A stretch of 64,000 bases of DNA from Escherichia coli (lineage in GTDB: Bacteria > Pseudomonadota > Gammaproteobacteria > Enterobacterales > Enterobacteriaceae). Below the pieces are notes generated by a model, which made no database searches, was not told the DNA's origin, and was given only the letters and a program-made list of their open reading frames with translations. The stretch lies in NCBI RefSeq assembly GCF_016026235.1, contig NZ_CP065613.1; one strand, written 5' to 3'. The translations under genes and the position numbers were made by a program. Below, in pieces: positions 343 to 49,007 of the stretch. The stretch's first letter is position 1, and every line of letters starts with the position of its first letter.

Positions 343-2420
343 TATTTGCCGCCAATTGTCGCCGTCATGCGGATATGTCGGTTATCAGACAGTTCCAGAT
401 TCGACAGGACCACTAACTGCGGCAAGCTGCGGCGCAGGAAGCGAGACAATAATGGTCGCAGCGCGTGGTTCACCAACAATACTGGCGGCGCACCCAGCAT
501 CTCCTGACGGGATAGCGCTTCCTGAGTTTGCGCCAGTAAACGATCCGCCAGCCCTGGCTCCAGTCCTCCCCCGCCCTGCAGCGCCTGTAGTAACAAACGT
601 TCCAGCGGTGTATCGAGGCCAATAACATGGACTTCATCTTTGCCAGGAAACCACTGCTGGGTAATCGCCCGTCCCAACGCCACGCGCACGACGGCGGTTA
701 ATTCATGTGGATCGCTTTGGATGGGCGCATGTTCCGCCAGCGTTTCGAGAATGGTGCGCATATCGCGAATCGGTACTTTTTCATCGAGGAGATTTTGCAG
801 CACTTTATGCAGTGTGGTGAGCGTGACGACGCCAGGAACGAGATCTTCCGTCAGCTTTGGCATCTCCTGGGCGACGCGATCCAACAGCTGTTGCGCCTCC
901 TGACGACCAAACAGCTCTGCGGCATGCTGGCTAATGAGGTGGTTAAGATGCGTTGCTACCACCGTGCTGGCCTCAACCACTGTGTACCCCTGAATCTGCG
1001 CCTGTTCTTTTAGCGCACTTTCAATCCAGATAGCATTCAGGCCAAATGCCGGATCGACGGTCGCCTCACCAGGTAACGTCCCGGCAGCGGTACCAGGGTT
1101 AATTGCCAGCCAGCGCCCCGGATAAGCATCACCACTGCCAATCTCTACGCCTTTCATCAAAATACGATAACGTGCCGGTTGCAGATCCATATTGTCGCGA
1201 ATGTGCACCACCGGCGGCAAGAAGCCCATTTCCTGAGCAAATTTCTTACGAATACTACGAATACGGCCCAGCAACTCGCCATCTTGTTGGAAATCAACCA
1301 TCGGGATCAGTCGATAACCCACTTCCATTCCCAGAGAATCTTCCAGTTGTACATCGTTCCACGTCGCTTCTACAACGGTATTATTCTCTGCCATTTTTAC
1401 CGGTTTGGGTTCGGCAGGCGCTTTTTGTTCGCGTCCGCGTATCCACCAGGCCAGCCCGAGCAATCCGGCAGTGAACAGCAAAAATACCAGGTTCGGCATT
1501 CCAGGCACCAGGCCGAGTAAACCGAGCACGGCGGCGCTTAACAACATAACGCTTGGGTTACTGAAAAGCTGATTCACCATCTGCTCGCCAACATCCTGAT
1601 CGGTGCTGACACGCGTAACGATGACCCCCGCGGCGGTAGAAATCACCAGCGCCGGAATTTGTGCCACCAGACCGTCGCCAATGGTCAATAGCGTATAACT
1701 TTCCGCCGCGTGTCCCATGCTCATGCCATGTTGCAGCACGCCGACCAGCAACCCGCCGACAACGTTAATGACCATGATGAGGATCCCGGCGATGGCATCG
1801 CCGCGAACAAACTTACTTGCCCCGTCCATTGAGCCGTAAAAATCGGCTTCCTGAGTGACTTCGGAGCGGCGTTTTTTCGCCTCATCTTCACCAATCAATC
1901 CGGCGTTAAGGTCGGCGTCAATCGCCATCTGCTTACCCGGCATACCATCGAGAACAAAGCGCGCACCCACTTCTGCGATACGCCCGGCACCTTTGGTAAT
2001 GACCATAAAGTTGATGATCACGAGAATGACAAACACCACGATACCGATAGCGAAATTGCCACCAACGAGGAAGTGACCGAACGCTTCGACCACCTTCCCT
2101 GCCGCCGCTGCGCCGGTATGCCCTTCCATCAAAATGATACGGGTTGAAGCCACGTTAAGTGCCAGACGCAACAGCGTGGTAAACAACAGAATGGTCGGAA
2201 ACGCAGCAAACTCGAGCGTGCGCTGGGTAAACATCGCCACCAGCAACACCATGATCGACAAGGCAATATTGAAGGTAAACAACAGGTCGAGTATGAATGC
2301 GGGCAGTGGCAGCACCATCATCGACAAGATCAACAGGATCAAAATCGGTCCGGCAAGGATCTGCCATTGTGTCGATTTCAGGTTTGCGGGCAGGCGCAGC
2401 ATCGCGGCCAGATTACTCAT
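342..2420 (-). CDS. flhA: Flagellar export apparatus protein FlhA (692 aa)
   Basis: ORF 342..2495 matches FlhA; the in-frame upstream extension is not used, start set at the conserved MSNLAAMLRLPANLKS (ATG at 2418-2420) overlapping the flhB 3' end. Confidence 0.95.
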   Translation of the reverse strand: MSNLAAMLRLPANLKSTQWQILAGPILILLILSMMVLPLPAFILDLLFTFNIALSIMVLLVAMFTQRTLEFAAFPTILLFTTLLRLALNVASTRIILMEGHTGAAAAGKVVEAFGHFLVGGNFAIGIVVFVILVIINFMVITKGAGRIAEVGARFVLDGMPGKQMAIDADLNAGLIGEDEAKKRRSEVTQEADFYGSMDGASKFVRGDAIAGILIMVINVVGGLLVGVLQHGMSMGHAAESYTLLTIGDGLVAQIPALVISTAAGVIVTRVSTDQDVGEQMVNQLFSNPSVMLLSAAVLGLLGLVPGMPNLVFLLFTAGLLGLAWWIRGREQKAPAEPKPVKMAENNTVVEATWNDVQLEDSLGMEVGYRLIPMVDFQQDGELLGRIRSIRKKFAQEMGFLPPVVHIRDNMDLQPARYRILMKGVEIGSGDAYPGRWLAINPGTAAGTLPGEATVDPAFGLNAIWIESALKEQAQIQGYTVVEASTVVATHLNHLISQHAAELFGRQEAQQLLDRVAQEMPKLTEDLVPGVVTLTTLHKVLQNLLDEKVPIRDMRTILETLAEHAPIQSDPHELTAVVRVALGRAITQQWFPGKDEVHVIGLDTPLERLLLQALQGGGGLEPGLADRLLAQTQEALSRQEMLGAPPVLLVNHALRPLLSRFLRRSLPQLVVLSNLELSDNRHIRMTATIGGK

Positions 2421-3561
2421 GGGTCGGTTTCTCGTTAATAAAATCCAGGGCTTCCGGCACCGGAAGATGAGTAGGTTGTACAGGGCGCTGTCCACCAGCC
2501 AGACGCCAGCGTTTCAGTTGCCAGACCTAGGCCAGCACTTCCGCCACCGCGGCGTACAGTTGACCCGGGATTTGTTGACCAATCTCCGCATGTCGATACA
2601 GCGCTCGCGCCAGCGGCGGCGCTTCAAGCGTCGGGACGTTATTTTCAGCGCCAATTTCACGAATGCGCAGCGCGACCAGCCCTGCACCTTTAGCGACCAC
2701 TTTCGGTGCGCTCATTTTGTTTTCGTCATACTGCAACGCTACCGAATAGTGGGTCGGGTTATTGACAATGACATCCGCTTTCGGCACATCGGCCATCATC
2801 CGACGCCGTGCAGCCGCTCGCTGCATCTGACGGATCCGCCCTTTAACATGGGGGTCGCCTTCGCTTTGTTTGAACTCATCACGAATATCCTGCCGCGACA
2901 TACGCAGCTTTTTCAGGTGGCTGAAGATTTGGAAAAAGACGTCAAATCCCACCATTGGAATGACACCAAGCACCACCAGCAGTGCGCATAGCCCTACCAG
3001 ATCCATCGCATTACCCATGGCGGTAATCGGAGACTCGGCCATTAAGCGCATCATCTGCGGCCAGTGATGCCAGAGAAAAAACCCCGTCACGCTGCCAACC
3101 AGGATGGTTTTCAAAATTGCTTTAAGTAACTCCGCGCCAGTCTGTGCCGAGAACATCCGTTTAATGCCCGGTAGCGGGTTGAGTTTGGAAAACTTCGGCT
3201 GCAAGGATTTGCCGCTAAATACCAGCCCTCCCAGCATGACCGGAGAAATGAGCGCCACCAGCACCACGCAGCTAATCAGCGGTAGCAGCGCCAGCATGGC
3301 TTCTCTGATCAGCAGAATAAACTGCCCGAGGATCAGATTCGGGTCATTGATAATACTGTGATCAAAATGCAGCCCAGCGGAGAGCATGCCCGACAATCGA
3401 CGGGCCAGGGACACACCGCCAAACCAGATAACACACACGCCCACCAGCAAAATCAGCAGTGAAGTCAGTTCACGGGAACGTGGGATTTGCCCCTCTTCCC
3501 GCGCTTTTTCTAGTCGGTGAGGTGTGGGGGCTTCTGTTTTGTCGTCGCTCTCGTCAGACAC
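2413..3561 (-). pseudogene. flhB: FlhB flagellar export switch protein with premature amber codon (TAG at 2527-2529); encodes 344 aa instead of ~382
   Basis: ORF 2527..3561 matches FlhB to ...AVAEVLA then TAG. The same frame continues after the stop (VWQLKRWRLAGGQRPVQPTHLPVPEALDFINEKPTHE*) to the expected stop overlapping the flhA start, so this is a point nonsense change, not the native end. Confidence 0.8.
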
Positions 3562-3796
3562 GTCGCCAATCCTGGAAAGAGTATTAAGCGTAAATGATGC
3601 CAGAGCGCAAAGCGTTCAATGGTTTGAGTAAGGGGCAAAACCGGCGGGATTTAGGACGTTTATGCAAAAATAGGTTCAGTTGCAGAACGTTTTGCGAACC
3701 ATTTTCCAGTTCTGATATTTAGCCATTTAGCCTATAGAATCGCCCACCGCCTCTCTGTTAGTTTGCTAATAATTAAATTATTACAAAGGTGATCAA

Positions 3797-5305
3797 ATGG
3801 AATGGCAACAATTGCTTAACTGCAACCGTCGGAAAGATAATCTAAAAAAAACCAACATAGCATTTTTACATCCCCTTGCTAGCGGAAGACAAGAGATCGA
3901 ACGGGATTACGACCGATTACTTTTTGCTGCGCCAACTCGTCGCCTTGCGGATAAAACACAAGTTTTCCCGTTAGATCAAAATGACAGCATACGGACGAGA
4001 CTGACTCATTCTCACGAAGTAGCAAACTTTGCTCGCGGAATAGGAATGAGACTCGCTTTCGAGATGAAGGAGCACATCTTTGGCGAAATACCCACGGGGA
4101 TTGTCGTTGAACGCGACGTTCCTGCTCTGTTAGCAGCGATCGGACTGGCACACGATCTCGGTAATCCACCATTTGGGCATCAAGGTGAAGCAGCGATGCG
4201 CGCATGGTTTAATAAAAATCTTCCAGGTCTTCTTGATAAAGAAGTAAACAGCGAAATATATAACGACTTTCTGCAATTTGATGGAAACTCACAAACCCTG
4301 CGCCTGGTTACCAAATTACAAATTATTAACGATAACTTTGGTCTGAATTTGACCTATGCCACGCTGGCTGCACTGATCAAATATCCCCGAGCTTCATATT
4401 CATCGGACAAACATTGGAAAAAGCACGGTTTTTTCTATTCTGAGCATGAGGTTGTCATGGATGTCTGGCAGCAAACGGGCCTTGGCGTACCAGGTAATGA
4501 TGCCGGTTGCCGCCACCCATTTACCTGGATAATGGAAGCTTGCGACGATATTGCCTACTCTGTGCTTGACGCAGAAGATACCATCAAGAAAGGATTTGCC
4601 TCATACCAGGATTTGCGTGATTTTTTGATGTCACAATCCGGGGCGAACGATGTAATTGAAAATGTTATTAAAGCTGTAGAGGCCAAAAATGACGCCTGGA
4701 AAGAGCAAAGAAATGCACTTTCACCGGCAGAAATTAATGAACTCAGTATGCAAATGTTCAGAGTGTATGCCACCAGTGCATTGATTAATGCCGTAGTAGA
4801 AGCCTTTCGCGAACAATTACCCACGCTGATGCAGCGTGACTGCCCGTTCAAAGATTTAATCTCGCAAAGCAAAGGTCACGCCCTCTGCACTGCCCTGAAA
4901 ATGTTCGACCGAACACGAGGCTACCTTCATCGTTCAGTCTTGCAACTGGAACTTAGGGGGTCTAATTACATTACTAACTTGATGGATATGCTCTGGATTG
5001 GCATCCATGGACACAAAACAAAGAAAGAACGAGACGGAGAACGCGAGTCCGCGTCTGCAGATAACCTTTTTGTTTCTCGTGAAGAATACCTGTCGGATAC
5101 TCCCTTTGGTCGCTATGCTTACGGGACAATATCTGAAAATTATCGCCGTGTGTTTGAAGATCCCGCCAATACACTCCCTGTTCTTTATAAAGAAGCGCAG
5201 TTGCTTACCGACGCAATCTCAGGCATGACGGATAGTTATTTAATGCGCCTTCACGATGAGCTAAAATCACTGTATGAATGTGGTCTCAAACACCCAACAG
5301 CTTGA
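3797..5305 (+). CDS. Dgt-family dGTP triphosphohydrolase-like HD-domain protein (502 aa)
   Basis: Motifs RTRLTHSHEVANF, LAHDLGNPPFGHQGE, FDGNSQTLRLV and FTWIMEACDDIAYSVLD align with conserved blocks of E. coli Dgt (recalled). RBS AAGGTGA 7 nt upstream of ATG. AT-rich relative to flanking che/flh genes. Confidence 0.8.
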   Translation: MEWQQLLNCNRRKDNLKKTNIAFLHPLASGRQEIERDYDRLLFAAPTRRLADKTQVFPLDQNDSIRTRLTHSHEVANFARGIGMRLAFEMKEHIFGEIPTGIVVERDVPALLAAIGLAHDLGNPPFGHQGEAAMRAWFNKNLPGLLDKEVNSEIYNDFLQFDGNSQTLRLVTKLQIINDNFGLNLTYATLAALIKYPRASYSSDKHWKKHGFFYSEHEVVMDVWQQTGLGVPGNDAGCRHPFTWIMEACDDIAYSVLDAEDTIKKGFASYQDLRDFLMSQSGANDVIENVIKAVEAKNDAWKEQRNALSPAEINELSMQMFRVYATSALINAVVEAFREQLPTLMQRDCPFKDLISQSKGHALCTALKMFDRTRGYLHRSVLQLELRGSNYITNLMDMLWIGIHGHKTKKERDGERESASADNLFVSREEYLSDTPFGRYAYGTISENYRRVFEDPANTLPVLYKEAQLLTDAISGMTDSYLMRLHDELKSLYECGLKHPTA

Positions 5306-6026
5306 ACAGCGTATCGCCGATTTTTTTACGCTTAGTGATGAGCATAAGAAAGCCAGAGTATTACTTGATACTCTGGCCTGTTCCTGTCCGGCCTGGATTT
5401 TTGGCGGGATGGTGCGTGACTTAGGCTTGTTTGGCGTCGAAGGATTCTCTTCAGACCTTGATATCGTCATCGGTCGCTCGCGTGAGGAACTCTTCCAGAC
5501 ATTGGCTGAACTGCCCGTCAAACAACTGCGTTTTAATAAGTTTGGTGGGATCCGTTTTCGTTATCACGACTTCGAATTTGATATCTGGAACCTCAATGAG
5601 ACATGGGCATTTCGGGAAAAACTTATATTTTGTGAGGATGAATCAAGTCTGTTAAACACTACGCTAATGAGTTGGGATGCCGTGCTCTATGATCTACGTA
5701 GTGAAAAAATTATCAGTAAAGATAATTATTTGACCGATTTAAATCGCAGACATCTTGAACTTGTTCTTCATACTAACCCCAATCCAAGCGGTTCGGTAAC
5801 GAAGATTTTACGCACTATTTTTACTAAGCAGGTAAAGAGTTTAGGGCCGGAACTCTGTCATTTCTTGCACCATGAACTGACGAAAAAACGTTATGAAGTA
5901 TGGCATCACTACGATGTACTGCACTACCAATCATCGTCATTTTCTCGTTCACAATTTAATGCATTGATAAATTTACTGGCGCAACAATCACGCTTCGCTG
6001 ATCTAAAATTATCAAACTACAAATAA
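5274..6026 (+). CDS. Minimal nucleotidyltransferase, CCA-adding enzyme / poly(A) polymerase head-domain type (250 aa)
   Basis: WIFGGMVRDLGLFGVEGFSSDLDIVIG matches the GGxVRDxLLG...DxD head motif of class II tRNA nucleotidyltransferases/PcnB. Start overlaps the upstream dGTPase-like ORF by 32 nt; exact start codon uncertain. Confidence 0.6.
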   Translation: MNVVSNTQQLEQRIADFFTLSDEHKKARVLLDTLACSCPAWIFGGMVRDLGLFGVEGFSSDLDIVIGRSREELFQTLAELPVKQLRFNKFGGIRFRYHDFEFDIWNLNETWAFREKLIFCEDESSLLNTTLMSWDAVLYDLRSEKIISKDNYLTDLNRRHLELVLHTNPNPSGSVTKILRTIFTKQVKSLGPELCHFLHHELTKKRYEVWHHYDVLHYQSSSFSRSQFNALINLLAQQSRFADLKLSNYK

Positions 6027-6113
6027 CCATCCTCCACGTACTCCCTGAACGAAACCCGCCACCCTGCTATCGGCCTGGCATCATCGCGCAGGCCGAAGTT
6101 CAGGCAATACAAA

Positions 6114-13080: not shown

Positions 13081-15972
<2,892 letters not shown>

Positions 15973-16245
15973 GCTTCCTCGGTTGTCGTCTGTTGTTGCG
16001 GATTTTTCACCGCACGCACATGCTCTTCCAGTTCAATAAACGACGGACGTTCGCTGGAATAGAGCGTTTTGCGACCAAACTCAACGGCGATAGGCGGTGC
16101 GTAACCGTTCAGATTAGAAAGCAGAGTGACTTTGACGCACTGCATCATTTTGCTGGTTTCGGCGCTTTTCTGACGTAAAACACTCGCTAATGGGGAAATA
16201 AATCCGTAAGCCAATAAAATGCCGAGGAAAGTCCCCTGAGGAATC

Positions 16246-17528
16246 CCCAGAAAACAAGACAGGCATAGTGAGATGTGATCTAATTGATTGTGCTAACAAT
16301 TTCAAGGAGATCACCACTATGCCTGCACGTTCATTATGCCAAAATTTCCTTAACAACATACTGGCCCCTTTGCATCTTTACCGTCAAAAATCACTGATTG
16401 ACGCAACTAATGCTGTAATAAATGGCGCTTCCCTCACACTTACCAGTATCGGGCGTCATTTAACCGGTACGGCATCAGTTAAAAACAAAATAAAGCGGGT
16501 GGATCGACTGTTGGGGAATCGACATTTGCAAAATGAGGTTTCCACCATTTTTCAGCGAATTACCCAAAAGATTACGCGGGGAATGTCTCGTGTTGTGATA
16601 CTCATTGACTGGAGTGCTTATCATGCCTCTCGTTTTCAGCTTTTGCGGGCAAGCCTGGCATGTGACGGGCGTTCTTTACCGTTGATGAGTTGTGTCGTTC
16701 CATCATCACAGACAGCGAATGCAGATGTACATGAGCGTTTTCTGGAATCGCTTGCTGAGTGCTTTTCCCCCGGGACTGATGTCATTGTTATTACAGATGC
16801 CGGTTTTCAGGGGCGATGGTTCCAACAGCTCCGCTCCCGTGGCTGGACCTATATTTGCCGGGTACTGGGCAATCATTATTACAATGTTGGTAATGGCTGG
16901 GAAAAGGTGTCGGACTCAGGCACAAAAGCATCAACGACAGCAATTTATTTAGGTGAAGGCCTGCTGGGTCGAGATAAAAATGCACAACATGAAGGGCATT
17001 TTTATCTTTATAAAAGTAAGCCTAAAGGTCGTTGATTTAAACGCTCGAAGGAAAGAGCAACCAGACCATCGGTGACGGCTAAAGCTCGTACTGCCGGGAA
17101 ATCACCATGGTTTATTTTCACAAACAGTACTGAGTTCTCGCCAAAACAGGTAATGAAATTATACAGCCGTAGAATGCAAATTGAGCAAAATTTCAGGGAT
17201 GAAAAAATCCTCGCTGGGGATTTGGACTACGGTTTGGTGCCAGTCATTCATCCGGGCGGGTCACGGTATTGAGTCTGATCGCAACATTAGCCAGTATCAT
17301 TATGTGGTTAAGCGGTTTCAGCCTGGAAAACAAAGGGATACATCATAAATATCAGGCAAATACAGTGAAGCACAGGCGAGTCATCTCGTTATTAAAACTG
17401 GCGGAGAATGTGATTCGACATTCTCCACTCATACTAAACACACTGTCACTTGACGCAGGGCTGAAAGTTCTACAGCAACGGTATACCAATATGATAATGG
17501 TTTACTAAATTTTCTGGGGATCCCTCAG
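16246..17528 (+). mobile_element. IS4-family, IS10-like insertion sequence (~1.28 kb) inside motA
   Basis: Ends are inverted repeats CTGAGG(A/G)ATCCCCAGAAAA, resembling IS10 termini; flanked by a ~9 bp target duplication (GAAAGTCC core); internal ORFs homologous to IS10 transposase. Confidence 0.8.
16268..17508 (+). pseudogene. IS10-like transposase, degraded into three ORFs (16268..17035, 17072..17272, 17269..17508)
   Basis: Segments align in order with IS10 transposase blocks (KRVDRLLGNRHL, ILIDWS, ITDAGF, YSRRMQIEQNFRDEK, YQANTVKHRRV) but are separated by a stop and a frame change. Confidence 0.75.
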
Positions 17529-18285
17529 GGAAAGTCCCCACCATCGCATGTGCGATAAGCGCACCCAGCTCGGCGGCAGGACGATCGGCTGAACCTAACG
17601 CGTGAACGACCCCCATTACAGCCGCGACAATACCAAACGCCGGAAGTGAGTCCCCGACCAGCGCCAGACTGTTCGCCGGGACTTCTGCCTCGCTTTCGTG
17701 CGTCTCAATCTCTTCATCCATCAGGGCTTCGATTTCGAAGGTGTTCATATGACCGCTGATAATCAGACGCAGATAATCGACGATAAAATCAAGCATGACG
17801 CTATCCGCGAGGATGCGTGGGTAGCTGGCGAAGATCTCGCTCTCACGGGGATTTTCAATATCACGTTCCAGCGAAAACATCCCCATCTGCCGCGATTTCG
17901 CCATCAACCGATAAAGCAGAGCCAGCAGATCCATATACATTGCTTTGGTGTATTTGGAGCGACGAAACAGCAACGGCAGCGCTTTCAGCGTGCCTTTAAT
18001 CGCTTTGCCATTATTGCCGACGATAAACGACCCAATCCCTGCACCGGCAATAATCACCAGTTCAGCGGGTTGATAGAGTGCTCCAAGGCTTCCACCGGTC
18101 ATCAAATAACCGCCGAAAACTGTACCGAGAACAACCAGGTAACCTAATAAGATAAGCACGACATCATCCTTCCACTGTTGACCATGACAGGATGTTCAGT
18201 CGTCAGGCGTTAACGCGCGATTGGGGCAAAAAAAAGCAGCGGTACGTCGTTACCGCTGCTGGAATGTTGCGCCACACCGTATCAG

Positions 18286-34053: not shown

Positions 34054-36396
34054 TGTTCTTATTACCTTTAACTAATTATGCCAATTCAGACTCAAACGCT
34101 GCATCATTCGCTTCAGCCTCTGCGCCATCAATTAATGCCAAGACTCGGTCAAGAAAGCGTTGCGCTTCGTATACATCTGTTGCTTGCCGCAGATAATGAG
34201 GTATTCGTTCAACAAACTCGGAACGTGATAAAGGCTGATGTTCCAGCAAAGCCTCAAGCATTGCGGGCCGCAACAAACGACGATCAGCATCAACATTAGG
34301 AAGCTCAACCTCAATGACATGTGTGGCAAAATACTTAAGTTGCTCCTTAAGCCCCAAATTGGGCATAAGAGAATCAATTGAGTCAGACGCCACTTCAGCG
34401 CTTGACTCAATCGTTTCGACATATTCACAGGAAGGTACAACAACGTCTGGAGCCAATGTTTTAAGCTCATGGAGTTTACGGATAATCGGAGATAGAACCT
34501 CATCAGGATTACTGAACCAATCAGTGGACCAAATGCGGCTAATTCTCCAACCCAAACGCTCCAGAACCTCTTGACGCAAACGGTCACGATCACGAGCAGA
34601 TTTAGCTGAGTGATAAGCCGCACCATCACACTCTATGCCCATTAAGTAACGGCCAGGACAACCTGGATCTTTCACAGCTAGATCAATAAAGAATCCTGCA
34701 ACCCCTACCTGAGGTTCACACTCAAACCCAGCGTGATTGAGTGCTTCCATTACAGCAACCTCAAAGTCACTATCTGGAGCCCTGCCGGTATGCGTTGTGA
34801 GGGAATCTAGTTTGCCACTTTCGGCAAACTGTAAAAAACCTTTCAACGAAATAACACCAAGTTTACTGGTTTCACTCGTCAATACATCTTCAGAACGCAT
34901 TGAACTAAACACATGCATCCGTTTTTTTGATCGAGTGAAAAGCACATTCAAGCGACGCCAGCCAACATCGGAATTGATAGGTCCAAAGCGTTGATAAACC
35001 TTTCCACCATGCTCAGAAGGTCCATAGGTAAAGGAAATAAAGATTACATCACGCTCATCCCCTTGAACGTTCTCAAGGTTTTTCACAAAAAGTGGCTCTT
35101 CCATGGCATATAAGCCATCGATTGCATCGTTAAATTCAGGGCGATTTCGGCGCAATTCATCGATAGCGCGCTCAATTTGATCGCGTTGCTTGGAACTCAT
35201 GGCCACTACCCCGAGTGACTCACCCGGCCGGTGTTGCGCATGATGAAGTACGGCCTCAGCAACTGCTTGGGCTTCTTCAATATTGTGTTGATTGGAGAAC
35301 CGACCTTTTGACACATAGGTAAATTTAATCCCATACTCTGGAGACTCAGCATTTGGGGAAGGGAATATCACCAAATCACTGTTATAAAAATGGCGGTTAG
35401 AGTATGCAATCAACTTTTCATGTCGTGAACGATAGTGCCAACGCAAACGTCTCATAGGAAACAGTGGCAAAGCAGCATCCAAAATGCTGTCAGTATCACT
35501 TAAAGCCGCGGCATCATCGTCATCTTCTCCGTCGGCACTTCGATCAAAGAAACTGGTTGGTGGTAGCTGTTTCGGGTCACCAACGACCACTAGTTGCTTG
35601 CCCCTCGCGATGACACCCAATGCATCCTCTGGCTTCACCTGAGACGCTTCGTCCATCACCACCAGATCAAATTCCATTCGTCCAGGTTCTAGGTAATGAG
35701 CTGCTGACATTGGCCCCATCATGAAACAAGGTTTAATTGCAACCAGCGCATTACATGCACGGTTAACCAATTGCCTAATTGGAATATGTCTGGTTTTTTT
35801 ACCCAACTCATTTTTGATCAAAGCTAGTTCTGTATATTCACTTTTCTTACCACCAGAATTCCCTTCTGGTATATTTCGGTAAGCAATTTTTGCTGCAATC
35901 CGCTGACGTTGTAATTCAATCAGTTTTTTGTCGTAATCTTTAAATGACTTCTGCAAAGCATTGCGCTGTGAGCCGGAAACTCTCATCAATTCAGGGTGGA
36001 TGTGAATAACCTCCCGCGCCAGCTGGTCATGAATTGCTAATGCTAAACCCAATTCAACTTTTTCAATCGGGAGCGAGCCCGCAAGTACAGCACTCCAGAT
36101 TCGCTGCAATCCATTTTCATGCATCTGCTCGTAACAACGAATAAAGTTAACCCACCCGTTCAACCAACGGGGTTGCTGTATTGCTCTTTCGTTGCGCTCG
36201 ATTAATGTATTAAGAGAACCATCAGTCGACTTGAGCCACTGACTCCGCTCTAACTTTGTTTCTAGCGCATATAACTCAGCATTTTTAATCTGTTCATTCC
36301 ATTTCGAAACTATTTCCCCACCATCACGACATAGTAAATCGGGTGATGCTGCCAACTTACTGATTTAGTGTATGATGGTGTTTTTGAGGTGCTCCA

Positions 36397-36672
36397 GTGG
36401 CTTCTGTTTCTATCAGCTGTCCCTCCTGTTCAGCTACTGACGGGGTGGTGCGTAACGGCAAAAGCACCGCCGGACATCAGCGCTATCTCTGCTCTCACTG
36501 CCGTAAAACATGGCAACTGCAGTTCACTTACACCGCTTCTCAACCCGGTACGCACCAGAAAATCATTGATATGGCCATGAATGGCGTTGGATGCCGGGCA
36601 ACTGCCCGCATTATGGGCGTTGGCCTCAACACGATTTTACGTCACTTAAAAAACTCAGGCCGCAGTCGGTAA
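36397..36672 (+). CDS. insA: IS1 protein InsA
   Basis: [43 protein letters not shown]... matches InsA. Confidence 0.9.
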
Positions 36673-37094
36673 CCTCGCGCATACAGCCGGGCAGTGACGT
36701 CATCGTCTGCGCGGAAATGGACGAACAGTGGGGCTATGTCGGGGCTAAATCGCGCCAGCGCTGGCTGTTTTACGCGTATGACAGTCTCCGGAAGACGGTT
36801 GTTGCGCACGTATTCGGTGAACGCACTATGGCGACGCTGGGGCGTCTTATGAGCCTGCTGTCACCCTTTGACGTGGTGATATGGATGACGGATGGCTGGC
36901 CGCTGTATGAATCCCGCCTGAAGGGAAAGCTGCACGTAATCAGCAAGCGATATACGCAGCGAATTGAGCGGCATAACCTGAATCTGAGGCAGCACCTGGC
37001 ACGGCTGGGACGGAAGTCGCTGTCGTTCTCAAAATCGGTGGAGCTGCATGACAAAGTCATCGGGCATTATCTGAACATAAAACACTATCAATAA
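36591..37094 (+). CDS. insB: IS1 transposase InsB reading frame (expressed as InsAB by -1 frameshift)
   Basis: ORF matches InsB (...[21 protein letters not shown]...); overlaps insA in the -1 frame. Confidence 0.85.
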
Positions 37095-40000
37095 GTTGGA
37101 GTCATTACCAGTAAATCGTAATCACTACCACTAGCCAAATGTCTGATCTGGGTAGCCAAGGATACGCAATTTATCTTATCAACCAGTTGCTCGGCAAAAT
37201 TCAGCGTGTCGTTAATAGTGTCTAACGTCAGTTGATTATTTTTATACGCACCGCAAGCCAATGGGGTTAATTGTAAAAACGCCCCTAACTGTAACGAGTC
37301 ATTTTCAAGGGATATCTGAAGATCGTTTATGTTTTGCAAAATCTCGGAGGAATGAGTCATCTGCTCTAATGATATATCTGGATTGATAAACCATCCCTGC
37401 AAGGCAATGAGAGTATTCCGCACCTGTCGGTAAGATTGCATCAATACACCTTGCTCACCTAACCAAGATGCATGTTCTTCCAACAAGCTAGAAATACGCG
37501 GTAATAACTTAGCCTCGTGCTCGACCCGTTTAACCAAAGTCATTAATCTTGAGCTAATCTGCGATTTCTCGATTAAATGCACACCTTTGATAATCTCACC
37601 ATCTAGGTTAATTAATCCAGAGCCTATCGCAACTCGCTTTCCAAAACCTATCCCGTAACAAGCTCGGACCTTCTTGTACCAATCACGCAATAACATGAGT
37701 TGTTCACAGTCGGTGTCCAACCCTCGGAATGCATTACCAAGTTGATTACCAAAGTCACTTTGTTCAAACCGTTGTAACAGCTCCGAATACTTGAGCAAAT
37801 CAGCTGAGCAGCGTTTTAACTCAGCAAACTTAGTGTCAGGCTTACGAGATTGCGCCATGAGCAGTGCCTTGGCACTACGCCAATCACTCTTAAACCATGC
37901 AAATAATCCCCCTTGCTGGATAACAGCAACGGCATGCGCGAGCATCTCTTGGGAAGGCAACTGGTCCAATTGATACAAAGTAGATAGACCATCTCTTAAA
38001 GGACGCAATGTTTCGATTTGACACATTAAGTCGCGCAATACTGCATCGATATCATCATCATCAAAAAGAGGATCTCGAACTCTAATAAGCTCAGTCGGTA
38101 AAGCACCCAGAATCGACAACAACTCAGAGCAGAATAGCAATCCAGCTTGCGAATCATCGATATACGAAGCAATACCATCTGGCAAAGCATTTTTGAAATC
38201 GTTTAATTGCGCATAAATAGATGATAACTCATCATGAATTGATTGGATGGATTCAAGCCACCTGACCAAATCACGTAAAGTGAAATCCTCTGCTGCACCA
38301 TATTTTTCCAGCTCTTCACGAGGAAAGTCACACGATTGTCCTTGTTCTAAAAGTCGTAGCTTTTGAGGCTCGATAACCTGGCTCAAGGCCACATAATGAC
38401 CTTGTAGCAACTCGAACCTATCTAAATAGTGACGCACCCGTGCAATGGCATCGAGTGAATCTAGCTCACTAAGTGCTGGGAAATGCTCTGAACCACACAA
38501 CACTGGAAGATTCGACTGATCTTCTACCAATTGCTCAATATATTGAAGCGTATTAAGGCTTTCGCCTTCTAACGCCCACTTATCTACATATTCTTGATAG
38601 CTATGTTGAAAGTCGATAATTGATGTCTGCCAAGTTTGTAGCAAATCGACTATACGAGCGCTGTCAAACAATTGAATTTGTGTGTTATTCACACCGCTCC
38701 AAGGGTGCTCATATATTTCTGCATTAGCCCCCACCTGCTCACGAACCTCTTTGTAGATGCGGCTAAACTCTACTATTTGGTCACGCAGCCGTAATTGGGT
38801 CACTTTATCCAACTGCTTCCCGGAAAGGTTTTCGATATGAAGTGCTGTTGCATCAATATCTAATTTGTGACGATAACGTGTTGCACCACTCAAAATCTGA
38901 TGGATCGTTTTGCCTGTTTGCGCCCATTGGTTATTGATCAATGCGGCATATTCATTGAGCTGCTGCTTAAGATCTTCATAACGCAAAATCTGAGCATCAA
39001 TCTCTTCCATAGTAGGCATGGTCGCCTGACTCACCAAGCGAGCATTAATATCATCCAGCACCTTGCGCTTATGAGTTTTATGACTGTGCAACTCTAAGCA
39101 AAATTGACCTAGCCCCGCACGATCCAAGCGACGTTTGACGACCTCCAGTGCAGCCATCTTCTCTGCCACAAACAGGACTTTCTTACCGTTGAGCAGAGCT
39201 GCTGCAATCAAGTTGGTGATCGTTTGTGATTTGCCACTACCAGGAGGGCCCTCAATGACTAAGTTTTGACCACGGATAGCATCGATCAACGCACTGTGCT
39301 GCGAGCTATCCGCATCATCGATTAGTGGAACCTTGTCATGAATATCAGGGTAACTATCGATGCAGTACTCATGCTGACCGAAGCCACCAGGTAAGCCGGA
39401 ATTCTCTTGACCACAGCTCTGACTGGTGAAAAAGCGACGAATTACTTCATGAGACAATATATTGCGCTTGTCACAAGGCCAGCGGGCAGGATCGAGGTCA
39501 AGATACATCATCATCTTGCCAAAATTGAGCAAGCTAAGTGCACCATAACGTTTCACAGACCATTTAGGTTTGTGCTGCTCTACAACCTTCTTCACCGAAG
39601 CAAAATAAGACTCTGGAGTTTCCTCTTCATTGAACAAAGGAAGAGCGAGGCCAAAGTCAGCCTGAAGTTTTTCCTTCAAAGAGAGATTGGGCAAAATATC
39701 TTCACCCGTGTAATAAAGTTGAAACTTGTAAAGACCATCCTTCGGATCTAATTTTCCTCGTTCACATCTCACCGGAATTGTAAATAACGGTGCATAACGT
39801 GCCTTTTCAGAGGAATCGCTTTCATACCACTCAAGGAACCCTAACGCCAAATACAAGATGTTGGCGCCACTCTCCTCCAAAGCAGTTTGAGCCTTACCAT
39901 AGATGGCGCGCAAACAAGCTTCCAGTTCATTTGGATAAAGCAGAGCCTGTATCCGATTATCGTCATGAGAGGAATTGGAAGAAGATATACTAATCTCATT

Positions 40001-40774
40001 CCCAGCCTTTGCCTGTCGTTCAAAATCCTCAAGCCCTTCATAGCCTGCTAAGCAGCACGCCTCCTTCAACGCTGACAAAGCTATACCTTGATTAACGTAT
40101 TCAGAACGAATCCCTGTTAATTTTCCATTCTGGCCTTGGGCATATTGCAAGATAAACTGATGGGCTTTTTCCAGCAACTCTCTATCTGAATCAGAAACAA
40201 CCGTTTTATGGCTATCTGGTAAATCAAAATCTGTACGGATTCCTAAGACGTGCGCCCAATCCTTAGCGCTAGGATGAGCTCTTAACTGTATATCTTTACC
40301 ATCTGGCCCAACTTTGAGATAGCCATGCTCTAACAGCTGCGCTCTAGTTGGATCGGGCACAGGAGCAAATTCCATCGGGATTTCCGAGCAAAGGGTTTCA
40401 TAAAGCTGTTCTGGTAATTCATCAACAATACGTAGTGAAGACCCTTTTTGAGTGATAGGGAAATTCAAAAGTCGATTTCGAGACGTAAGGTCCAATAACT
40501 TCTTACGCATAGCCTCGAGGGAAGTCAGAATAAAATCTGAGCCTCCTTGATTGAGTTCCTCTGCTGTAGAGGTATCTACAGTCGACATAATGTTCTCCAT
40601 TTCTTAGGGTCCACAAGTAAAACGTTTTATGCTGATGCATCACAAAAAGACCGCAGTAAACTGCTGCAAAGAAGAGGAGATTTTTAGTCTCCCCTTCTTT
40701 ATCAATCAGATCATACAATCAACTTAACGCCCATTAGTTGATAGCAGCCAAATTTCATAAACAGATTCAATCCG

Positions 40775-42817
40775 TTATTGCTGAATTTGATTGGATAGTA
40801 AGACCTGCAACATATCTTGTTGATGCTCAGCTATCTCATCTTCCAGCCAACGACCTTTATCTTTCATCAGCCGAATCATAGCAAGCAATTTAAGACTATC
40901 AGTCTGGTTATTGGCAAGGCTTGCTTCAAAGTGCTCCTGCTTCTGTTGCGGCTGGAAGTTACTCAAGCGCGAGTTCTTGCTGTGGCTGATAAGGCAAAGG
41001 TTGCCAAACGAATGGAGTGCACTCTGCTCAACCGGTTTATAGCCATCCATCGGATGCTGGGGTGAGAAGTGCTCCACCGAGCTGCGGAAAGTGAACTCAA
41101 AGGAGCCAGCAACTTTGTCGCTATTCCGATCTCGTACCCACAGCAGATAGTCGAGGAAGTTGAAGACAAAGTTGTTCTCGATATGACCGAAGCGAAGTTT
41201 GGATGTAATCACCTTGTGCCAACTCTCATCCACATTGATGGCGGGCAACAGGGCGTTATCAAGGTAGAGCATCTGGTAATAGGAAGCCCCTTCACCAGGC
41301 GCCAAAAAGCGCTGGAAGACAAAGCGGCGAGCCTGACTCTCCAGATAGGACAGATAAGCCCCGGCATCCACCGGTTGATCAGGGTGACAATTGTCGAACA
41401 GATATCTCAGTGCACCATTCAGCCAATGTTTGTAAACCAGGGTCGGGGTCGACACATGAAACGCCGACAGCAACATCAGGACCCGCCGGTTAACACCAGA
41501 GAAACCATTCTCATTTTCATCCTTGTCAAAGGTATTGATGTAACTGACGCTCTTTTCCGAATACCAGTGCAGCCGCTTCAGACTCCAACTATCCTTGCCA
41601 TCGGCAAACTCGCGCTTGATGATGAACTGATCAAACAGATACTTGCTCTTTAACAGGCCATAGATAAAACGCTGAACTGCCGCTACTGGATCCGGTTGCC
41701 TTATCACTCGCAGCTCAAACTGATCGACCAGTTGTTTATCATCAAGCGGCACCCCCTCCGTATCACCCGGGTCGCGGCTCACGAGTCGCAGCACATGGAG
41801 CAAGAAGTTGGAGAAGTTGATGACGCTGTTAAAGCGCTCGGAGCCTGCGCTCTCCTCCTCCACCGTCTGCTCACCATCAAGCTTGTCATCCTGCAAAATG
41901 GCCAACAAGGTGCGCCCTTGGCTACCGGCAGCTGCACGGCTTTTATCGGCAGCGTCGGCCGTGTTTGGGGATCCTAGCAGTTCAAGCAGATGGGCAAAAT
42001 CACGGGGCACAAACTGACCCCAGTCGCTCTCACCAAACAGACGGTGGCGCTCTTGCGGGGTAAAGCCGTACTGGATATAGCGCTCCATATTGGCGCAGGC
42101 ATCCCATACCCGAGTCAGGATATGAATACTTTGGCGACGATGCTCTTCCTCGGGTATCTGGTTCAGCGTCTCCATCAGCCGCGCCTTGATCACTTCATGC
42201 TTTTCCAACTGCTCGCCGCGATTGTTCATCGCCTCGAAGAAGTGATTGAGATCGGTATCCTTGGGTACTTCGATACGAGAGATCTGCACATGCTTGAAGA
42301 GGTAGTCGCAAAAGGCCGTCAGTTTAGCCCCTACCAAACCAAGATCCGCCATTGCCTTGCCAATCAGCTCAAAACCGTTCACCAAACCTTCATTGAAGGT
42401 ACTCCCCCGCAAATCGTAGGGGGCAACACCCTGCCATAAGCGCTCGAAGGTATGGCTCGATATCGGGCGACTCTCAAAAGCGAGGTTGATGGTCTGATAC
42501 CAGCTCATATCCACCGAATCTATCGCGTGATGTTTGAGCCAATTGGCCAGCAGAGAGAGGGTAGTAAAGCGCTGCTGGCCATCGATTACCTCGAAACTGC
42601 CATCGTCCCGGGCAAACACCACCAGGGTGCCGATATAGTAGGTTTGCGGCCCCTTACCACTGACCAATTTTTGCTGATAATCCAGCACATCCTGCAGCAG
42701 CTGGGTGATCTCTCCCTCACCCCAGGCATAGTTGCGCTGGTACATGGGCACCAGATAGCGGGCGCGATCTTCAAGCAGTGCACGAATGGAAAAGGGGCGA
42801 ACGCCTGCATCATTCAT
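40775..42817 (-). CDS. DUF262 + DUF1524 (HNH-like) protein, GmrSD-family type IV restriction-like (680 aa)
   Basis: N-terminal DUF262 motifs ([26 protein letters not shown]) and C-terminal HNH-type block ([19 protein letters not shown]). GC-rich compared with the AT-rich island cargo. Confidence 0.75.
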
Positions 42818-44264
42818 AATATTTCATCTCCCGAAACAGCCCGACCAGCTCATCTTCGGCACCATTGCGATTGTTCTTGTTCTCTCGACTGCTCATGCTA
42901 GGCAAAGGGAAGCCGTGCAGATCTCCCGGCAGACGAGCATCACGAATGGCACGGATCAGATTGTGCTCCAGCACATAGTTATCCATGGTTGCCAACTGCA
43001 CTACCTGCTGGCGGATGCGGCAGCGATAGGCCCAGATAAAGCACTTCTCGATGGCCAGTGACAGCCCTTGGCTGCCGAACTTGTCGATATAGAAGATCAG
43101 TGCGCAGTCGAACATGGCCCGCACATAACGATCCCCGGTGCGGTGGCGACGCTCGTAGCTGCCCAGGGTCGATAGCACCTTGCTGGCCATCGGTGTCAGC
43201 GTTTCGCCGAGCAGGGTGGCAGATTGCGCCTTGCCGGAATCAGACTCCTCGGCCACGATGGCGGCCACCCGCGTCTGGTAGTACTCGGCCATCTCGAAAA
43301 AGCGCCGACCATTGATGATCATCTGGTCGAGATGAAAGGGAAACGTCATGTACTGGCCGTCAATCTTGCGCTGGTACTGGCGGTTGTACTCATCGACAAA
43401 GTGGTGGGCGATGCGCAGCGACTCCACGTAAGGATAATGCCCTACCCGATCTAGGTTGACCCCCTTGAAGAGATCCACCTCCCCCTTGCCAAAGTAGCGG
43501 GCCGACTTGCCCTCGGCCCACTGGCGTACCCGATAGAGATAGAGGGCGAACAGATTGGCCAGCTCGTCGCTTGGCAGGCGCTCCCAATGGGCGACCGCCT
43601 CGGCCTTGAGATTGGCCTCATGACCGGCAAACTCGCGCAGGTGAAATGCCTTGAGCAGATCGTGAGGAGCCAGATCGCGCCCCCGGGCATTTTGCGAATC
43701 GAAGAACTGGAACGCCTCCGAGATATCCTGCAGTACAAAGCAGACCACCTGACAGCGGTTGAGCAGAAAGTCAATTTGCTGCTCGTCAAACTCAGGGCGG
43801 GCCACCAGCCGACGCAACTCCAGATAGTTGCGTCTGAGGTTGAACTCCGAATCCCGGCTGGGGAAGCGCTGGCGCTGCATAAACGCATCGATAGGTCCAC
43901 GCAAGACCTGCAATTGCTCACGCAGATCCTGACGTTGAAACCGGATACTCTTCTCTTTGCCACTGCGATTTTCGTTATCCAGCACCTCGATCAGCGCCTT
44001 GACGGTCAACATCAGGGTCAGGGTGCGTTGCTGACCATCGACGATATCAAGCATCTCGCCCTGCTCACTATCGGTGTGCTGATGAAACACCACCGAGCCC
44101 AGCCGGTAGGCGCTCTTGTCCTGATGGGTTGCCAAATCGGTAAAGAGATCCGAGATATTCTTGGAGCCCCAGCGGTAAGGTCGCTGATAGCTTGGGATGG
44201 CCAGTTGGGGAATGGCCAGCAACTGGCGTACCGACTGCACTTGATTATTAATGCTCTCCATCAT
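42810..44264 (-). CDS. DUF262 (ParB-like nuclease/NTPase domain) protein (484 aa), partner of the downstream DUF262-DUF1524 gene
   Basis: Motifs [17 protein letters not shown] and [12 protein letters not shown]; 3' end overlaps the downstream gene start by 8 nt. Confidence 0.7.
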
Positions 44265-44918: not shown

Positions 44919-45674
44919 CTACATATCTGCCAACAACATCCCAGCCATACCATCCAGTCGCTTCTTAACCTTTTCCCAGCCCGGCATAACCTGCCCCATC
45001 AGACGGTAAAACTCCTCGCTGTGGTTGTGCTCAGCCACATGGCATAACTCATGTAGCAAAACATAATCGATACATTCTGAGGATGCCTTAACCAGCCATG
45101 GATTCAGGGTCAGACAGCCTTTTGCTGAACAGTTGCCCCATTGCGTTTGCATCGCCCGCAGACGTATCGGAGGACGCTCACTGACCCAAAGGGTCTGCGG
45201 AATCAGTAAATCAAGCCTGCGCTGAAAAACATCTCTGGCACGTTCCCGATACCATTCAGCCAGCAAGGCTTTAATCTTTTCTGCCGATTTGTGTCTGACA
45301 GTCACTTCCAGACGCCCACGCAACATTTTCACTCGTTGCGGCACAGTAGCGTCTTCTGTCACTTTCAACTGATATTGCTTACCGAGATAATAATGGCTTT
45401 CTCCGCTGACATACTGACGCGGAACAATGTGTATCTGTTGCTCCCTGAAATCACGCAGTTGCTGGTATATCCAGCGCCCACGTTTTTTCAGCGCAGACAA
45501 TACCTCGTGCTCCGGTGTTTCAGGCGGTACAGAGGCCACAACCCGGCAGTCCGGATAAACCTTAATGAGCACCCTGCCCTTTACGACCTGACGCGGAACA
45601 CACTGTACGACGATGACCTCATCACCATAGACAATGCGTAACGCTTTCATTGATGGCGATTCTTTTTCACTCAT
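44919..45674 (-). CDS. M48-family zinc metallopeptidase (YgjP/DUF45-like), type I R-M associated (251 aa)
   Basis: HExxH motif LLHELCHVAEHNHSEEF; start overlaps the hsdR stop; this family is commonly encoded next to type I hsd genes. Confidence 0.75.
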   Translation of the reverse strand: MSEKESPSMKALRIVYGDEVIVVQCVPRQVVKGRVLIKVYPDCRVVASVPPETPEHEVLSALKKRGRWIYQQLRDFREQQIHIVPRQYVSGESHYYLGKQYQLKVTEDATVPQRVKMLRGRLEVTVRHKSAEKIKALLAEWYRERARDVFQRRLDLLIPQTLWVSERPPIRLRAMQTQWGNCSAKGCLTLNPWLVKASSECIDYVLLHELCHVAEHNHSEEFYRLMGQVMPGWEKVKKRLDGMAGMLLADM

Positions 45675-48600: not shown

Positions 48601-48958
48601 TCACCTTCTTGCCATCGACAAACTCCGTGACGGCGATACCGTAGAGCAGATGGTTATACATCCGTTCATTGGCTTTGAGCAGCCCTTCATTGAGCGCCGG
48701 AGAACAGACCTGTGATATCAGGTTATCCAGTGCTTTTTCCGATAACTGGCAGGTTTTGCCACCCGCCATAAAGGAACGCTTCGACAGCTCTTCACGCAGA
48801 ACCGGACGCAGCACCACCTCATCCTGTTTATAGCCCCGGTAATCCATAATCTGTTTCGGAGATAAAAACGTCCAGCCGAGGCTGGTCAGTAACGTCAGTG
48901 CCGGAATTTTGGCGCTGTATTCTTCCTGGAATTTTGGCGTGTACGTCTGGTTCATCAT
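45671..48958 (-). CDS. hsdR: Type I restriction enzyme R subunit HsdR (1,095 aa)
   Basis: Size and motor-domain motifs (TGSGKS Walker A, DEGHRSQ DEAD-box-like motif II) typical of HsdR. Confidence 0.9.
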   Translation of the reverse strand: MMNQTYTPKFQEEYSAKIPALTLLTSLGWTFLSPKQIMDYRGYKQDEVVLRPVLREELSKRSFMAGGKTCQLSEKALDNLISQVCSPALNEGLLKANERMYNHLLYGIAVTEFVDGKKVNPTIALIDWEHPENNQFHFTEEFTVLRSGGVETRRPDIVCFVNGIPLAVIEAKSPAGHGKKGPTIDEGISQSIRNQLNDEIPQLFAYSQILLSINGHDGRYGTCHTPMKFWAAWREEDITYAQMYALRNHKLSTEQIHALFDHRPSADLDWYQQLIAAGELAVSGQDKLLISLLSPERLLEMTRFFTLFDKKTGKIVARYQQVFGIKRLLERISTRRPDGGREGGVIWHTTGSGKSYTMVFLSKALILHDSLKQCRIVVVTDRVDLEGQLSGTFASGGELAGKDDKAKAMATSGQKLAQQIGSGKERIIFTLIQKFNSATKLPECVNTSPDIIVLIDEGHRSQGGENHVRMKLALPNAAFVAFTGTPLLKEDKTTNKFGPIVHAYTMQRAVEDKAVTPLLYEERIPDLEVNDRAIDAWFDRITDGLSEAQKADLKRKYARKGEVYSADDRIRLIALDIATHFSKNIDEGLKGQLACDSKISAIKYKKYLDEAGLFESAVVISPPDTREGNTEVDESKLPEVTKWWKDNVGTQDESVYTRNVISRFDTDEKLKLLIVVDKLLTGFDEPKNTVLYIDKPLKSHNLIQAIARVNRLHPLKKFGLLIDYRGILAELDTTIGKYQDLASRTQGGYDIKDIDGLYSAMSSEYKRLPHLYNQLWAIFAGVKNKNDTEQLRAVLVPKMEERDGEMVDIHQKTRDDFFEALTAFAGCLKVALQSATFFTDKSFTEQDRNLYKETVKQMSSLRQWAMQVSGEQVNYDDYAEQVKKLLDKHVTGVEVREPDGVYEVGKMGKSEKPEEWDNNKTRNETDIIKTRVTKMIEQELRDDPYAQEAFSKLLRMAIEEAEKLFDHPLKQYLLFREFEEQVEARKLSDIPDALAVNKHAQAYYGVFKKELPEVFAVNDVQVQDKWTKLAFEVDNIIVKAVAENSLNPQDIEKVVKTSLLPLLFTACREIGAGMNQVNRIVETIIQILRVGLMKS

Positions 48959-49007
48959 TAATCCTTTTCTTTCTGGCGCTACTCGCTACTGGTCACATGA
49001 AGATTCA

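What the first reader, a model, noticed from the sequence alone, without database searches (positions are those of the whole stretch)
16237..17538. motA split by an IS10-like element whose transposase is itself degraded
The MotA reading frame is interrupted after ...AHAMVGTF by a 1.28 kb element with IS10-like termini (CTGAGGAATCCCC / CTGAGGGATCCCC) and a ~9 bp flanking duplication. The transposase homologue is broken into three ORFs by a stop and a frame change, so the insertion is old enough for the IS to have decayed, or the element was immobile on arrival. motB downstream is intact, but expression now depends on read-through from the IS.
Basis: partly seen in the sequence, partly recalled or inferred. 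Interest (0 to 1): 0.45.

Follow-up and report, generated by a model that had tools for sequence, protein, structure and literature searches.

The report
motA knocked out by insertion sequence ISEc60
The flagellar motor gene motA of an E. coli strain, probably of the invasive Shigella-like type, is cut in two by a catalogued mobile element (ISEc60, a relative of IS10) in a flagellar region that carries other dead genes too, which is the ordinary way such lineages lose motility.

Summary
A 1293-bp IS4-family element (16236-17528) with IS10-type ends and a 10-bp target duplication (GGAAAGTCCC) splits motA after codon 210. Removing it restores an intact 295-aa MotA. The element is ISEc60, a named IS that is multicopy in enteroinvasive E. 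coli.

It differs from the intact 1294-bp consensus at only two positions, and both inactivate the transposase:
- A798T (R239*), at window 17033.
- A one-base loss in an A7 run, at 17202-17207.

The "old, decayed IS" reading is not supported.
- There are no other changes in the element.
- A sister assembly has the same motA insertion and the same stop codon but a normal A7 run.
- All five copies retrieved from that assembly by look-up of the truncated product carry the stop. Other genomes have intact copies at three of the same sites.
- The stop is therefore a lineage-wide IS allele, not local decay.
- The frameshift may be a homopolymer miscall.

motB is intact, but that has no functional consequence. 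MotA is truncated, cheA has two lesions, flhB has a nonsense codon, and the IS exit carries a strong hairpin followed by a U-run.

This is ordinary, already-known biology.

The parts
16236..17528 (+). ISEc60 copy (IS4 family, IS10-related), 1293 bp. The transposase gene lies on the + strand, antisense to motA.
   Evidence: 99.6-99.8% identical over its full length to copies annotated 'IS4-like element ISEc60 family transposase'. It differs from the consensus at 2 positions.
16226..16235 (.). Left copy of the 10-bp target-site duplication, GGAAAGTCCC.
17529..17538 (.). Right copy of the 10-bp target-site duplication, GGAAAGTCCC.
16236..16254 (+). Left terminal inverted repeat, CTGAGGAATCCCC... 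It has no GATC and lies next to the 5' end of the transposase gene, like the corresponding IS10A end.
17510..17528 (-). Right terminal inverted repeat, CTGAGGGATCCCC... It contains a GATC, like the other IS10A end.
16260..16325 (.). 66-nt hairpin enclosing the transposase ribosome-binding site and ATG (16319). On the - strand it is followed by UCUUGUUUUCU. It sits where RNA-OUT sits in IS10A.
   Evidence: Folding energy -37.9 and -40.6 kcal/mol, z -6.0 and -5.6. Conserved in 5 relatives, with 2 compensatory pairs. RNA-OUT position in IS10A. No Rfam hit here.
16319..17035 (+). Transposase fragment 1: 238 aa with D97 and D160, ending at a premature TGA.
17033..17035 (+). Nonsense codon TGA in place of AGA (R239*; IS position 798, A to T).
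   Evidence: Shared by 5 copies in GCA_900449985.1.
17072..17272 (+). Transposase fragment 2, in the same frame as fragment 1. It contains the Y282-R285-E289-K296 motif.
17202..17207 (+). A6 run where intact copies have A7 (frameshift after K296).
   Evidence: Absent from the orthologous copy L004.
17269..17508 (+). Transposase fragment 3: the C-terminal 79 aa in the shifted frame.
17470..18159 (-). motA' ORF: 210 native MotA codons plus 19 IS-encoded codons (229 aa in all).
15969..16235 (-). The 3' remainder of motA (native codons 208-295; codons 208-210 fall within the duplicated 10 bp). It overlaps the motB start by 4 nt.
15046..15972 (-). motB, intact, 308 aa.
13081..15041 (-). cheA pseudogene in the same operon: a 4-bp deletion at about 14240 and Q578* at 13309-13311.

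Best explanation
An ISEc60 element transposed into a GGAAAGTCCC site inside motA and duplicated 10 bp. ISEc60 belongs to the IS4 family and is a distant relative of IS10. The insertion truncates MotA after residue 210 and so destroys the stator. This happened in a clonal E. coli lineage, probably enteroinvasive, that is shedding its flagellar system: cheA and flhB are also dead.

The insertion is evolutionarily recent, not old. The stop codon in its transposase is an allele shared by several ISEc60 copies of this lineage. It either spread between copies by gene conversion or was carried by defective copies that were moved in trans. The extra frameshift in an A7 run is either a very recent slippage or a sequencing miscall.

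Shown here: the anatomy, the identity of the element, the restoration of MotA on excision, and the distribution of the two alleles.

Inferred: loss of motility, polarity on motB-cheAW, the route by which the stop allele spread, and the enteroinvasive assignment.
For: - Anatomy and chance.
- Identity: the element is 99.6-99.8% identical over its full length to PGAP-named ISEc60 copies that have an intact 396-aa transposase. NF033591 scores 360 bits against a cut-off of 152. The transposase is 36% identical to the IS10A transposase, and D97, D160 and E289 align with IS10A D97, D161 and E292. The ends match IS10A at 12 of 13 bases and are identical to ISSfl1 over the first 13.
- Target duplication: 10 bp at 19 independent sites.
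- Excision restores a 295-aa MotA.
- The same junction ORF is present in 6 contigs from several assemblies, so this is not a misassembly. None of 5426 complete E. coli genomes has the junction.
- The element differs from the consensus at only two positions.
- Sister assembly: its motA copy has the stop but a normal A7 run. Five of its copies carry the stop, and other genomes have intact copies at three of the same sites.
- Further flagellar lesions: cheA has a 4-bp deletion and Q578*, and flhB has W345*. The flhB lesion is shared by at least 20 contigs.
- Background: flagellar loss and IS expansion in Shigella and EIEC (PMC7373316).
Against: - No phenotype or expression data are available.
- The enteroinvasive assignment is indirect. 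It rests on the names attached to close ISEc60 copies (O28ac, O124, LT-68, Shigella dysenteriae) and on the pattern of pseudogenes. No virulence plasmid was seen.
- The five stop-bearing copies were found by looking up the truncated product, so intact copies in that genome would have been missed.
- The same-site comparisons could reflect independent insertions, because the element has a strong target preference.
Confidence: 0.9

Rival explanations
1. One reading: the insertion is ancient and its transposase has decayed in place by neutral mutation.
For: The transposase does carry two inactivating lesions in this sequence.
Against: There are only 2 differences in 1294 bp from the intact consensus, and none is neutral. 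The motA halves rejoin into an intact ORF. The stop is shared by at least 5 copies at different loci in a sister genome. The frameshift is missing from the orthologous copy.
Confidence: 0.05
2. The frameshift (A6 in place of A7 at 17202-17207) is a homopolymer sequencing or assembly error, and the motA copy really carries only the stop codon.
For: The sister assembly is identical to the window over 6.7 kb except for this one base. The A6 form was found only in a 454-era draft (LT-68) and a PacBio-only NCTC assembly (my recollection of the platforms). Some copies in that NCTC genome are A7. The best-matching copy in each of the 29 complete RefSeq records that hold this stretch is A7.
Against: An A7 run is also a true slippage hotspot. 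The error could equally be in the sister assembly. No reads are available.
Confidence: 0.5
3. The motA copy was already defective (A798T) when it inserted, having been moved in trans by transposase from an intact ISEc60 copy elsewhere, for example on a plasmid.
For: Several stop-bearing copies have proper 10-bp duplications at distinct sites (motA, L008, L010, L011). The motA site is occupied only in this lineage.
Against: IS10-type transposases act mainly in cis (established knowledge of IS10; not tested for ISEc60). In other genomes three of the same sites hold intact copies, which fits conversion after insertion better.
Confidence: 0.3
4. The IS supplies an outward promoter that keeps motB-cheAW expressed, giving a functional rewiring.
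For: The orientation is right. The transposase 5' end faces motB, as pOUT faces outward in IS10. An extended -10-like TGGCATAAT lies on the - strand at 16333-16341 (read from the sequence).
Against: The promoter scan found nothing there. The exit carries a -40.6 kcal/mol hairpin plus a U-run. Translational coupling to motA is lost. MotB is useless without MotA, and cheA has two lesions.
Confidence: 0.1

Closest known systems
ISEc60 (IS4 family), as annotated by NCBI PGAP in E. coli genomes such as CFSAN029787 and FDAARGOS_943
   Same: 1292 of 1294 positions, the same ends, the same 10-bp duplication and the same palindromic target type.
   Different: This copy has R239* and, in this assembly, a one-base loss after K296, so it cannot make the 396-aa transposase.
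IS10 / IS10A (the Tn10 element)
   Same: - Terminal 13 bp match at 12 of 13.
- Only the end distal to the transposase start has a GATC.
- DDE and Y-R-E-K residues align.
- A long hairpin overlies the transposase start, where RNA-OUT lies in IS10A.
   Different: - Only 36% protein identity.
- The duplication is 10 bp; IS10's 9 bp is from my own knowledge.
- The target is cgGGGAWWTCCCcg; IS10's NGCTNAGCN is from my own knowledge.
- The hairpin does not match Rfam RNA-OUT.
ISSfl1 of Shigella flexneri
   Same: The first 20 bases of the left end are identical (CTGAGGAATCCCCAGAAAAC). The transposase is 52% identical. The 5' hairpin is homologous, with compensatory changes.
   Different: It is a different IS species. 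The one ISSfl1 copy examined has a 9-bp duplication.
IS-mediated loss of flagellar genes in Shigella and EIEC (for example IS in flhDC)
   Same: An IS disrupts a flagellar gene in an IS-rich lineage that has several flagellar pseudogenes (PMC7373316).
   Different: Here flhDC is intact. The hits are in motA (IS), cheA (deletion plus nonsense) and flhB (nonsense).

Membership tests
IS4 family | DDE transposase with the Y(2)R(3)E(6)K signature | tested here: met
   Aligned to the IS10A transposase, D97, D160 and E289 match IS10A D97, D161 and E292, and Y282, R285, E289 and K296 are present. In the window copy the stop at codon 239 precedes E289.
IS4 family | Curated family profile matched above its cut-off | tested here: met
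   NF033591 (IS4 family transposase) scores 360.5 bits against a cut-off of 152. Pfam PF01609 is on record for the gene products.
IS4 family | One long ORF between short terminal inverted repeats, with a direct target duplication | tested here: met
   Intact copies have a single 1191-nt ORF in a 1294-bp element. The inverted repeats match at 18 of 19 bases. The duplication is 10 bp at 19 sites.
ISEc60 (same IS species) | Near identity to the reference element (the ISfinder isoform rule: more than 95% at protein level or more than 90% at DNA level; from my own knowledge) | tested here: met
   99.85% DNA identity to copies that PGAP names ISEc60. The ISfinder reference entry itself could not be consulted.
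IS10-type antisense control (RNA-OUT, Rfam RF00240) | Match to the RNA-OUT covariance model | tested here: not met
   No hit at E<=1 in 15900-17800. The positive control, IS10A, scores 85.9 bits.
IS10-type antisense control (RNA-OUT, Rfam RF00240) | Stable stem-loop overlapping the transposase start and transcribed antisense | tested here: inconclusive
   The hairpin at 16260-16325 is strong (z about -5.6 to -6) and conserved, with 2 compensatory pairs in 5 sequences. Transcription was not tested and the promoter is inferred only.
MotA (flagellar stator) | Full-length 295-aa protein with four transmembrane helices | tested here: not met
   The native sequence ends at residue 210. The full length is recovered only after excision in silico.

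The most novel reading that the evidence does not exclude
The transposase-null allele (R239*) has spread through the ISEc60 copies of this lineage. This would have happened by gene conversion, possibly favoured by selection, and it would silence an IS that had expanded to dozens of copies. The motA copy would then be one member of a population that shut itself down. A further point of interest is that the ISEc60/ISSfl1 clade has an RNA-OUT-like antisense hairpin that the Rfam model does not capture.
Probability: 0.3. Interest if true: 0.3.

Novelty: already known. Interest (0 to 1): 0.12.

Why it matters
It matters little beyond annotation. It adds one documented lesion (motA::ISEc60) to the familiar picture of flagellar decay driven by IS expansion in invasive E. 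coli and Shigella lineages. It also gives a lineage marker shared by several assemblies.

The correction is more useful than the finding. An IS with a broken transposase is not necessarily old. Here the break is a shared allele of the IS population, plus a doubtful homopolymer call.

The by-products may help IS annotation:
- a 10-bp duplication;
- a palindromic cgGGGAWWTCCCcg target, often a terminator-like hairpin;
- an IS10-like 5' hairpin.

Tried and rejected
- Rfam scan for RNA-OUT in the element gave no hit. The control on IS10A worked.
- A PDB sequence search with the transposase found nothing.
- Exact look-ups of the 66-aa frameshift ORF and of a 1170-aa island ORF, meant to find the source assembly, returned no record.
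- Literature searches for ISEc60 returned two antimicrobial-resistance surveys, which I did not open. Searches for the assembly accessions returned nothing. A search for enteroinvasive + motA + insertion sequence returned nothing that looked relevant from titles and abstracts.
- I considered whether the 224-aa partial products seen in 36 short-read contigs report on the 798 polymorphism. I rejected this: those products end near IS position 757, next to the point (position 760) where truncated plasmid copies end.
- I considered UGA read-through or programmed slippage on the A run as ways to keep the transposase alive. There is no evidence for either, and the A7 form is the intact single-ORF state.
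- Misassembly of the insertion is rejected, because independent assemblies share the junction.

Full report
**What is there**

The window carries the E. coli flagellar region II on the - strand: flhEAB, cheZYBR, tap, tar, cheWA, motBA and flhCD. It is colinear with E. coli E2863 apart from insertions.

motA starts at 18159. It runs normally for 210 codons (...AHAMVGTF) and then enters foreign DNA. The resulting ORF ends after 19 further codons, giving 229 aa.

The foreign DNA spans 16236-17528 (1293 bp). It is bounded by 19-bp inverted repeats that differ at one base, CTGAGGAATCCCCAGAAAA and CTGAGGGATCCCCAGAAAA. These are found twice in the window against none in 100 shuffles. The element is flanked by a direct repeat, GGAAAGTCCC, at 16226-16235 and 17529-17538. 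Removing the element and one repeat copy restores an uninterrupted 295-aa MotA. That protein differs at 2-3 residues from each of three E. coli MotA proteins it was compared with.

**What the element is**

A megablast against 5426 complete E. coli genomes finds full-length matches at 99.6-99.8% identity. NCBI's annotation calls them 'IS4-like element ISEc60 family transposase', and each has one intact 396-aa ORF in a 1294-bp element.

- The intact protein scores 360 bits on NCBIfam NF033591 (IS4 family), against a cut-off of 152.
- It is 36% identical to the IS10A transposase over 93% of its length and 52% identical to the ISSfl1 transposase.
- In the alignment, D97, D160 and E289 fall on IS10A D97, D161 and E292. 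That these are the catalytic residues is from my own knowledge of IS10. The family signature Y282-R285-E289-K296 is present.
- Fetched IS10A ends read CTGAAGAATCCCC and CTGAAGGATCCCC, so each end of this element matches at 12 of 13 bases. As in IS10A, only the end far from the transposase start carries a GATC. The first 13 bases of both ISSfl1 ends are identical to this element's ends.

**Target duplication and target site**

Nineteen distinct ISEc60 insertion sites were gathered from the window and from public loci. All show a 10-bp duplication. Three of them (L025, L027, L034) begin or end with a base other than G or C, which removes the ambiguity at the ends. The sites share a palindromic consensus, cgGGGAWWTCCCcg. 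Several are terminator-like hairpins. The motA site (gaGGAAAGTCCCca) is a fair match.

**The state of the transposase**

Compared with the consensus of intact copies, the window copy differs at exactly two positions.

- IS position 798, A to T (window 17033). This turns AGA into TGA, giving R239*.
- One A missing from an A7 run (window 17202-17207). This shifts the frame just after K296.

Either lesion is expected to abolish the enzyme. The stop removes E289, and the frameshift replaces the last 100 residues.

**Why 'old and decayed' does not hold**

- There is no other difference in 1294 bp, and the two motA halves show no further damage.
- An independent assembly, GCA_900449985.1, whose proteins are named Escherichia coli in the source records, has the same motA insertion. 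It is identical to the window over 6.7 kb except that its A run is A7. It has the stop but not the frameshift.
- Looking up the truncated 238-aa product returned five ISEc60 copies at five loci of that genome. All carry A798T and are otherwise consensus, apart from one private change in one copy. Four of them have proper 10-bp duplications.
- In other genomes (GCA_031665325.1 and FDAARGOS_943), three of the same sites hold intact copies: fryC, nupC-pdeA, and the PTPS-flanked junction.
- In the complete RefSeq genomes, none of the 20 records with this stretch has A798T as its best match.

The stop is therefore a lineage-specific allele present in several copies. It reached them either by gene conversion between copies or because defective copies were moved in trans. 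I cannot decide between these two routes. The look-up was biased towards mutant copies, and the strong target preference makes independent same-site insertions conceivable.

**The frameshift is doubtful**

- The A6 form turns up in many copies of E. coli LT-68 and in some copies of another NCTC assembly. That NCTC genome also has intact copies.
- The best-matching copy in each of the 29 complete RefSeq records that hold this stretch is A7.
- The A6 form is also missing from the orthologous motA copy.

Either it is real slippage at a hotspot or it is a homopolymer miscall. I put these at roughly even odds. No short-read contig reaches that position.

**Consequences for the operon**

- motB (15046-15972) is intact, and its exact sequence is the one that a source names MOTB_ECOLI. 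Its start overlaps the motA stop by 4 nt, so the normal translational coupling is lost. This is an inference.
- Transcripts from upstream of motA must cross 1.3 kb of untranslated antisense IS. They meet a terminator-like site at 17428-17401.
- At the exit they meet a 66-nt hairpin (16260-16325; -40.6 kcal/mol, z -5.6) followed by UCUUGUUUUCU.
- The hairpin encloses the transposase ribosome-binding site and ATG. It is conserved in five relatives, with two compensatory pairs.
- It sits at the same place relative to the start codon as RNA-OUT does in IS10A, although the Rfam model does not detect it.
- Reading the sequence, I see an extended -10-like TGGCATAAT on the - strand (16333-16341). It would start an antisense RNA of about 70-80 nt at the base of the hairpin. 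On the + strand there is AAGACA, a 17-nt spacer, then TG-n-TCTAAT, which overlaps a GATC. Both are inferences, and the promoter scan did not flag them.
- Read-out into motB is thus possible in principle but not favoured by the anatomy.

The question has no functional consequence in any case. MotB needs MotA. In the same operon cheA has a 4-bp deletion (about 14240) and Q578* (13309-13311). flhB carries W345* (2527-2529).

**Context**

- The flhB lesion is shared by at least 20 contigs, and one of them is 99.993% identical to the window over 13.6 kb. The window therefore comes from a clonal lineage.
- The motA junction ORF is on record in 6 contigs and in none of 5426 complete genomes.
- Names attached to close ISEc60 copies include E. 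coli O28ac, O124, LT-68 and Shigella dysenteriae. The window holds at least three IS1 copies and several pseudogenes.
- This fits the published picture of IS expansion and flagellar loss in Shigella and EIEC (PMC7373316). I saw no virulence plasmid, so 'enteroinvasive' is an inference.

**Verdict**

This is a real, correctly located IS insertion in motA by a catalogued element. It is a textbook kind of event in a lineage where it is expected. The reading of age is wrong, and the point about motB has no functional consequence. Interest is low.

The only mildly unusual point is the lineage-wide nonsense allele in the IS population.

Noticed in passing
window 13081-15041: cheA is a pseudogene with two lesions: a 4-bp deletion at about 14240 and CAG to TAG (Q578*) at 13309-13311.
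   Followed up: yes
window 2413-3561: flhB carries TGG to TAG (W345*) at 2527-2529, which removes the last 38 residues. At least 20 contigs of a clonal lineage share it.
   Followed up: yes
window 3656-6099: A 2.4-kb insert lies between flhB and cheZ, where E. coli E2863 has 93 bp. It holds a dGTPase-like gene (PADLOC dGTPase, 237 bits) and a 250-aa ORF with no family match. It may be a small defence cassette.
   Followed up: partly
window 32114-60472: A 28-kb island lies beside the tRNA-Leu/Cys/Gly cluster and is absent from E2863. It holds an Hhe anti-phage gene that appears to be split by an IS1-sized insertion (halves at 37088-40600 and 34076-36355; a 167-aa ORF at 36591-37094 lies between them). 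It also holds two HEC-06/Orf5-like genes (40775-44264) and a type I restriction-modification set (45671-52427).
   Followed up: partly
19 ISEc60 sites: window 16226-16235 and loci L001-L034: ISEc60 inserts into a palindromic cgGGGAWWTCCCcg target with a 10-bp duplication. Many of the sites look like intrinsic-terminator hairpins. The target resembles the element's own GGGGATYCC ends.
   Followed up: partly
L013 1418-4014 (also L014): Two complete ISEc60 copies lie in tandem, separated by only 10 bp (GGGATTTACC). The pair is flanked by GGGATTTTCC on both sides. It may be an insertion into a duplicated target or a dimer intermediate.
   Followed up: no
L009 and L019; L002: Some ISEc60 copies lack matching duplications, which indicates recombination between copies (inversion or deletion). 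The same hybrid junction occurs in two different assemblies.
   Followed up: no
window 16260-16325: A conserved 66-nt hairpin lies over the transposase start in the ISEc60/ISSfl1 clade, positioned like IS10 RNA-OUT. The Rfam RF00240 model does not recognise it.
   Followed up: partly
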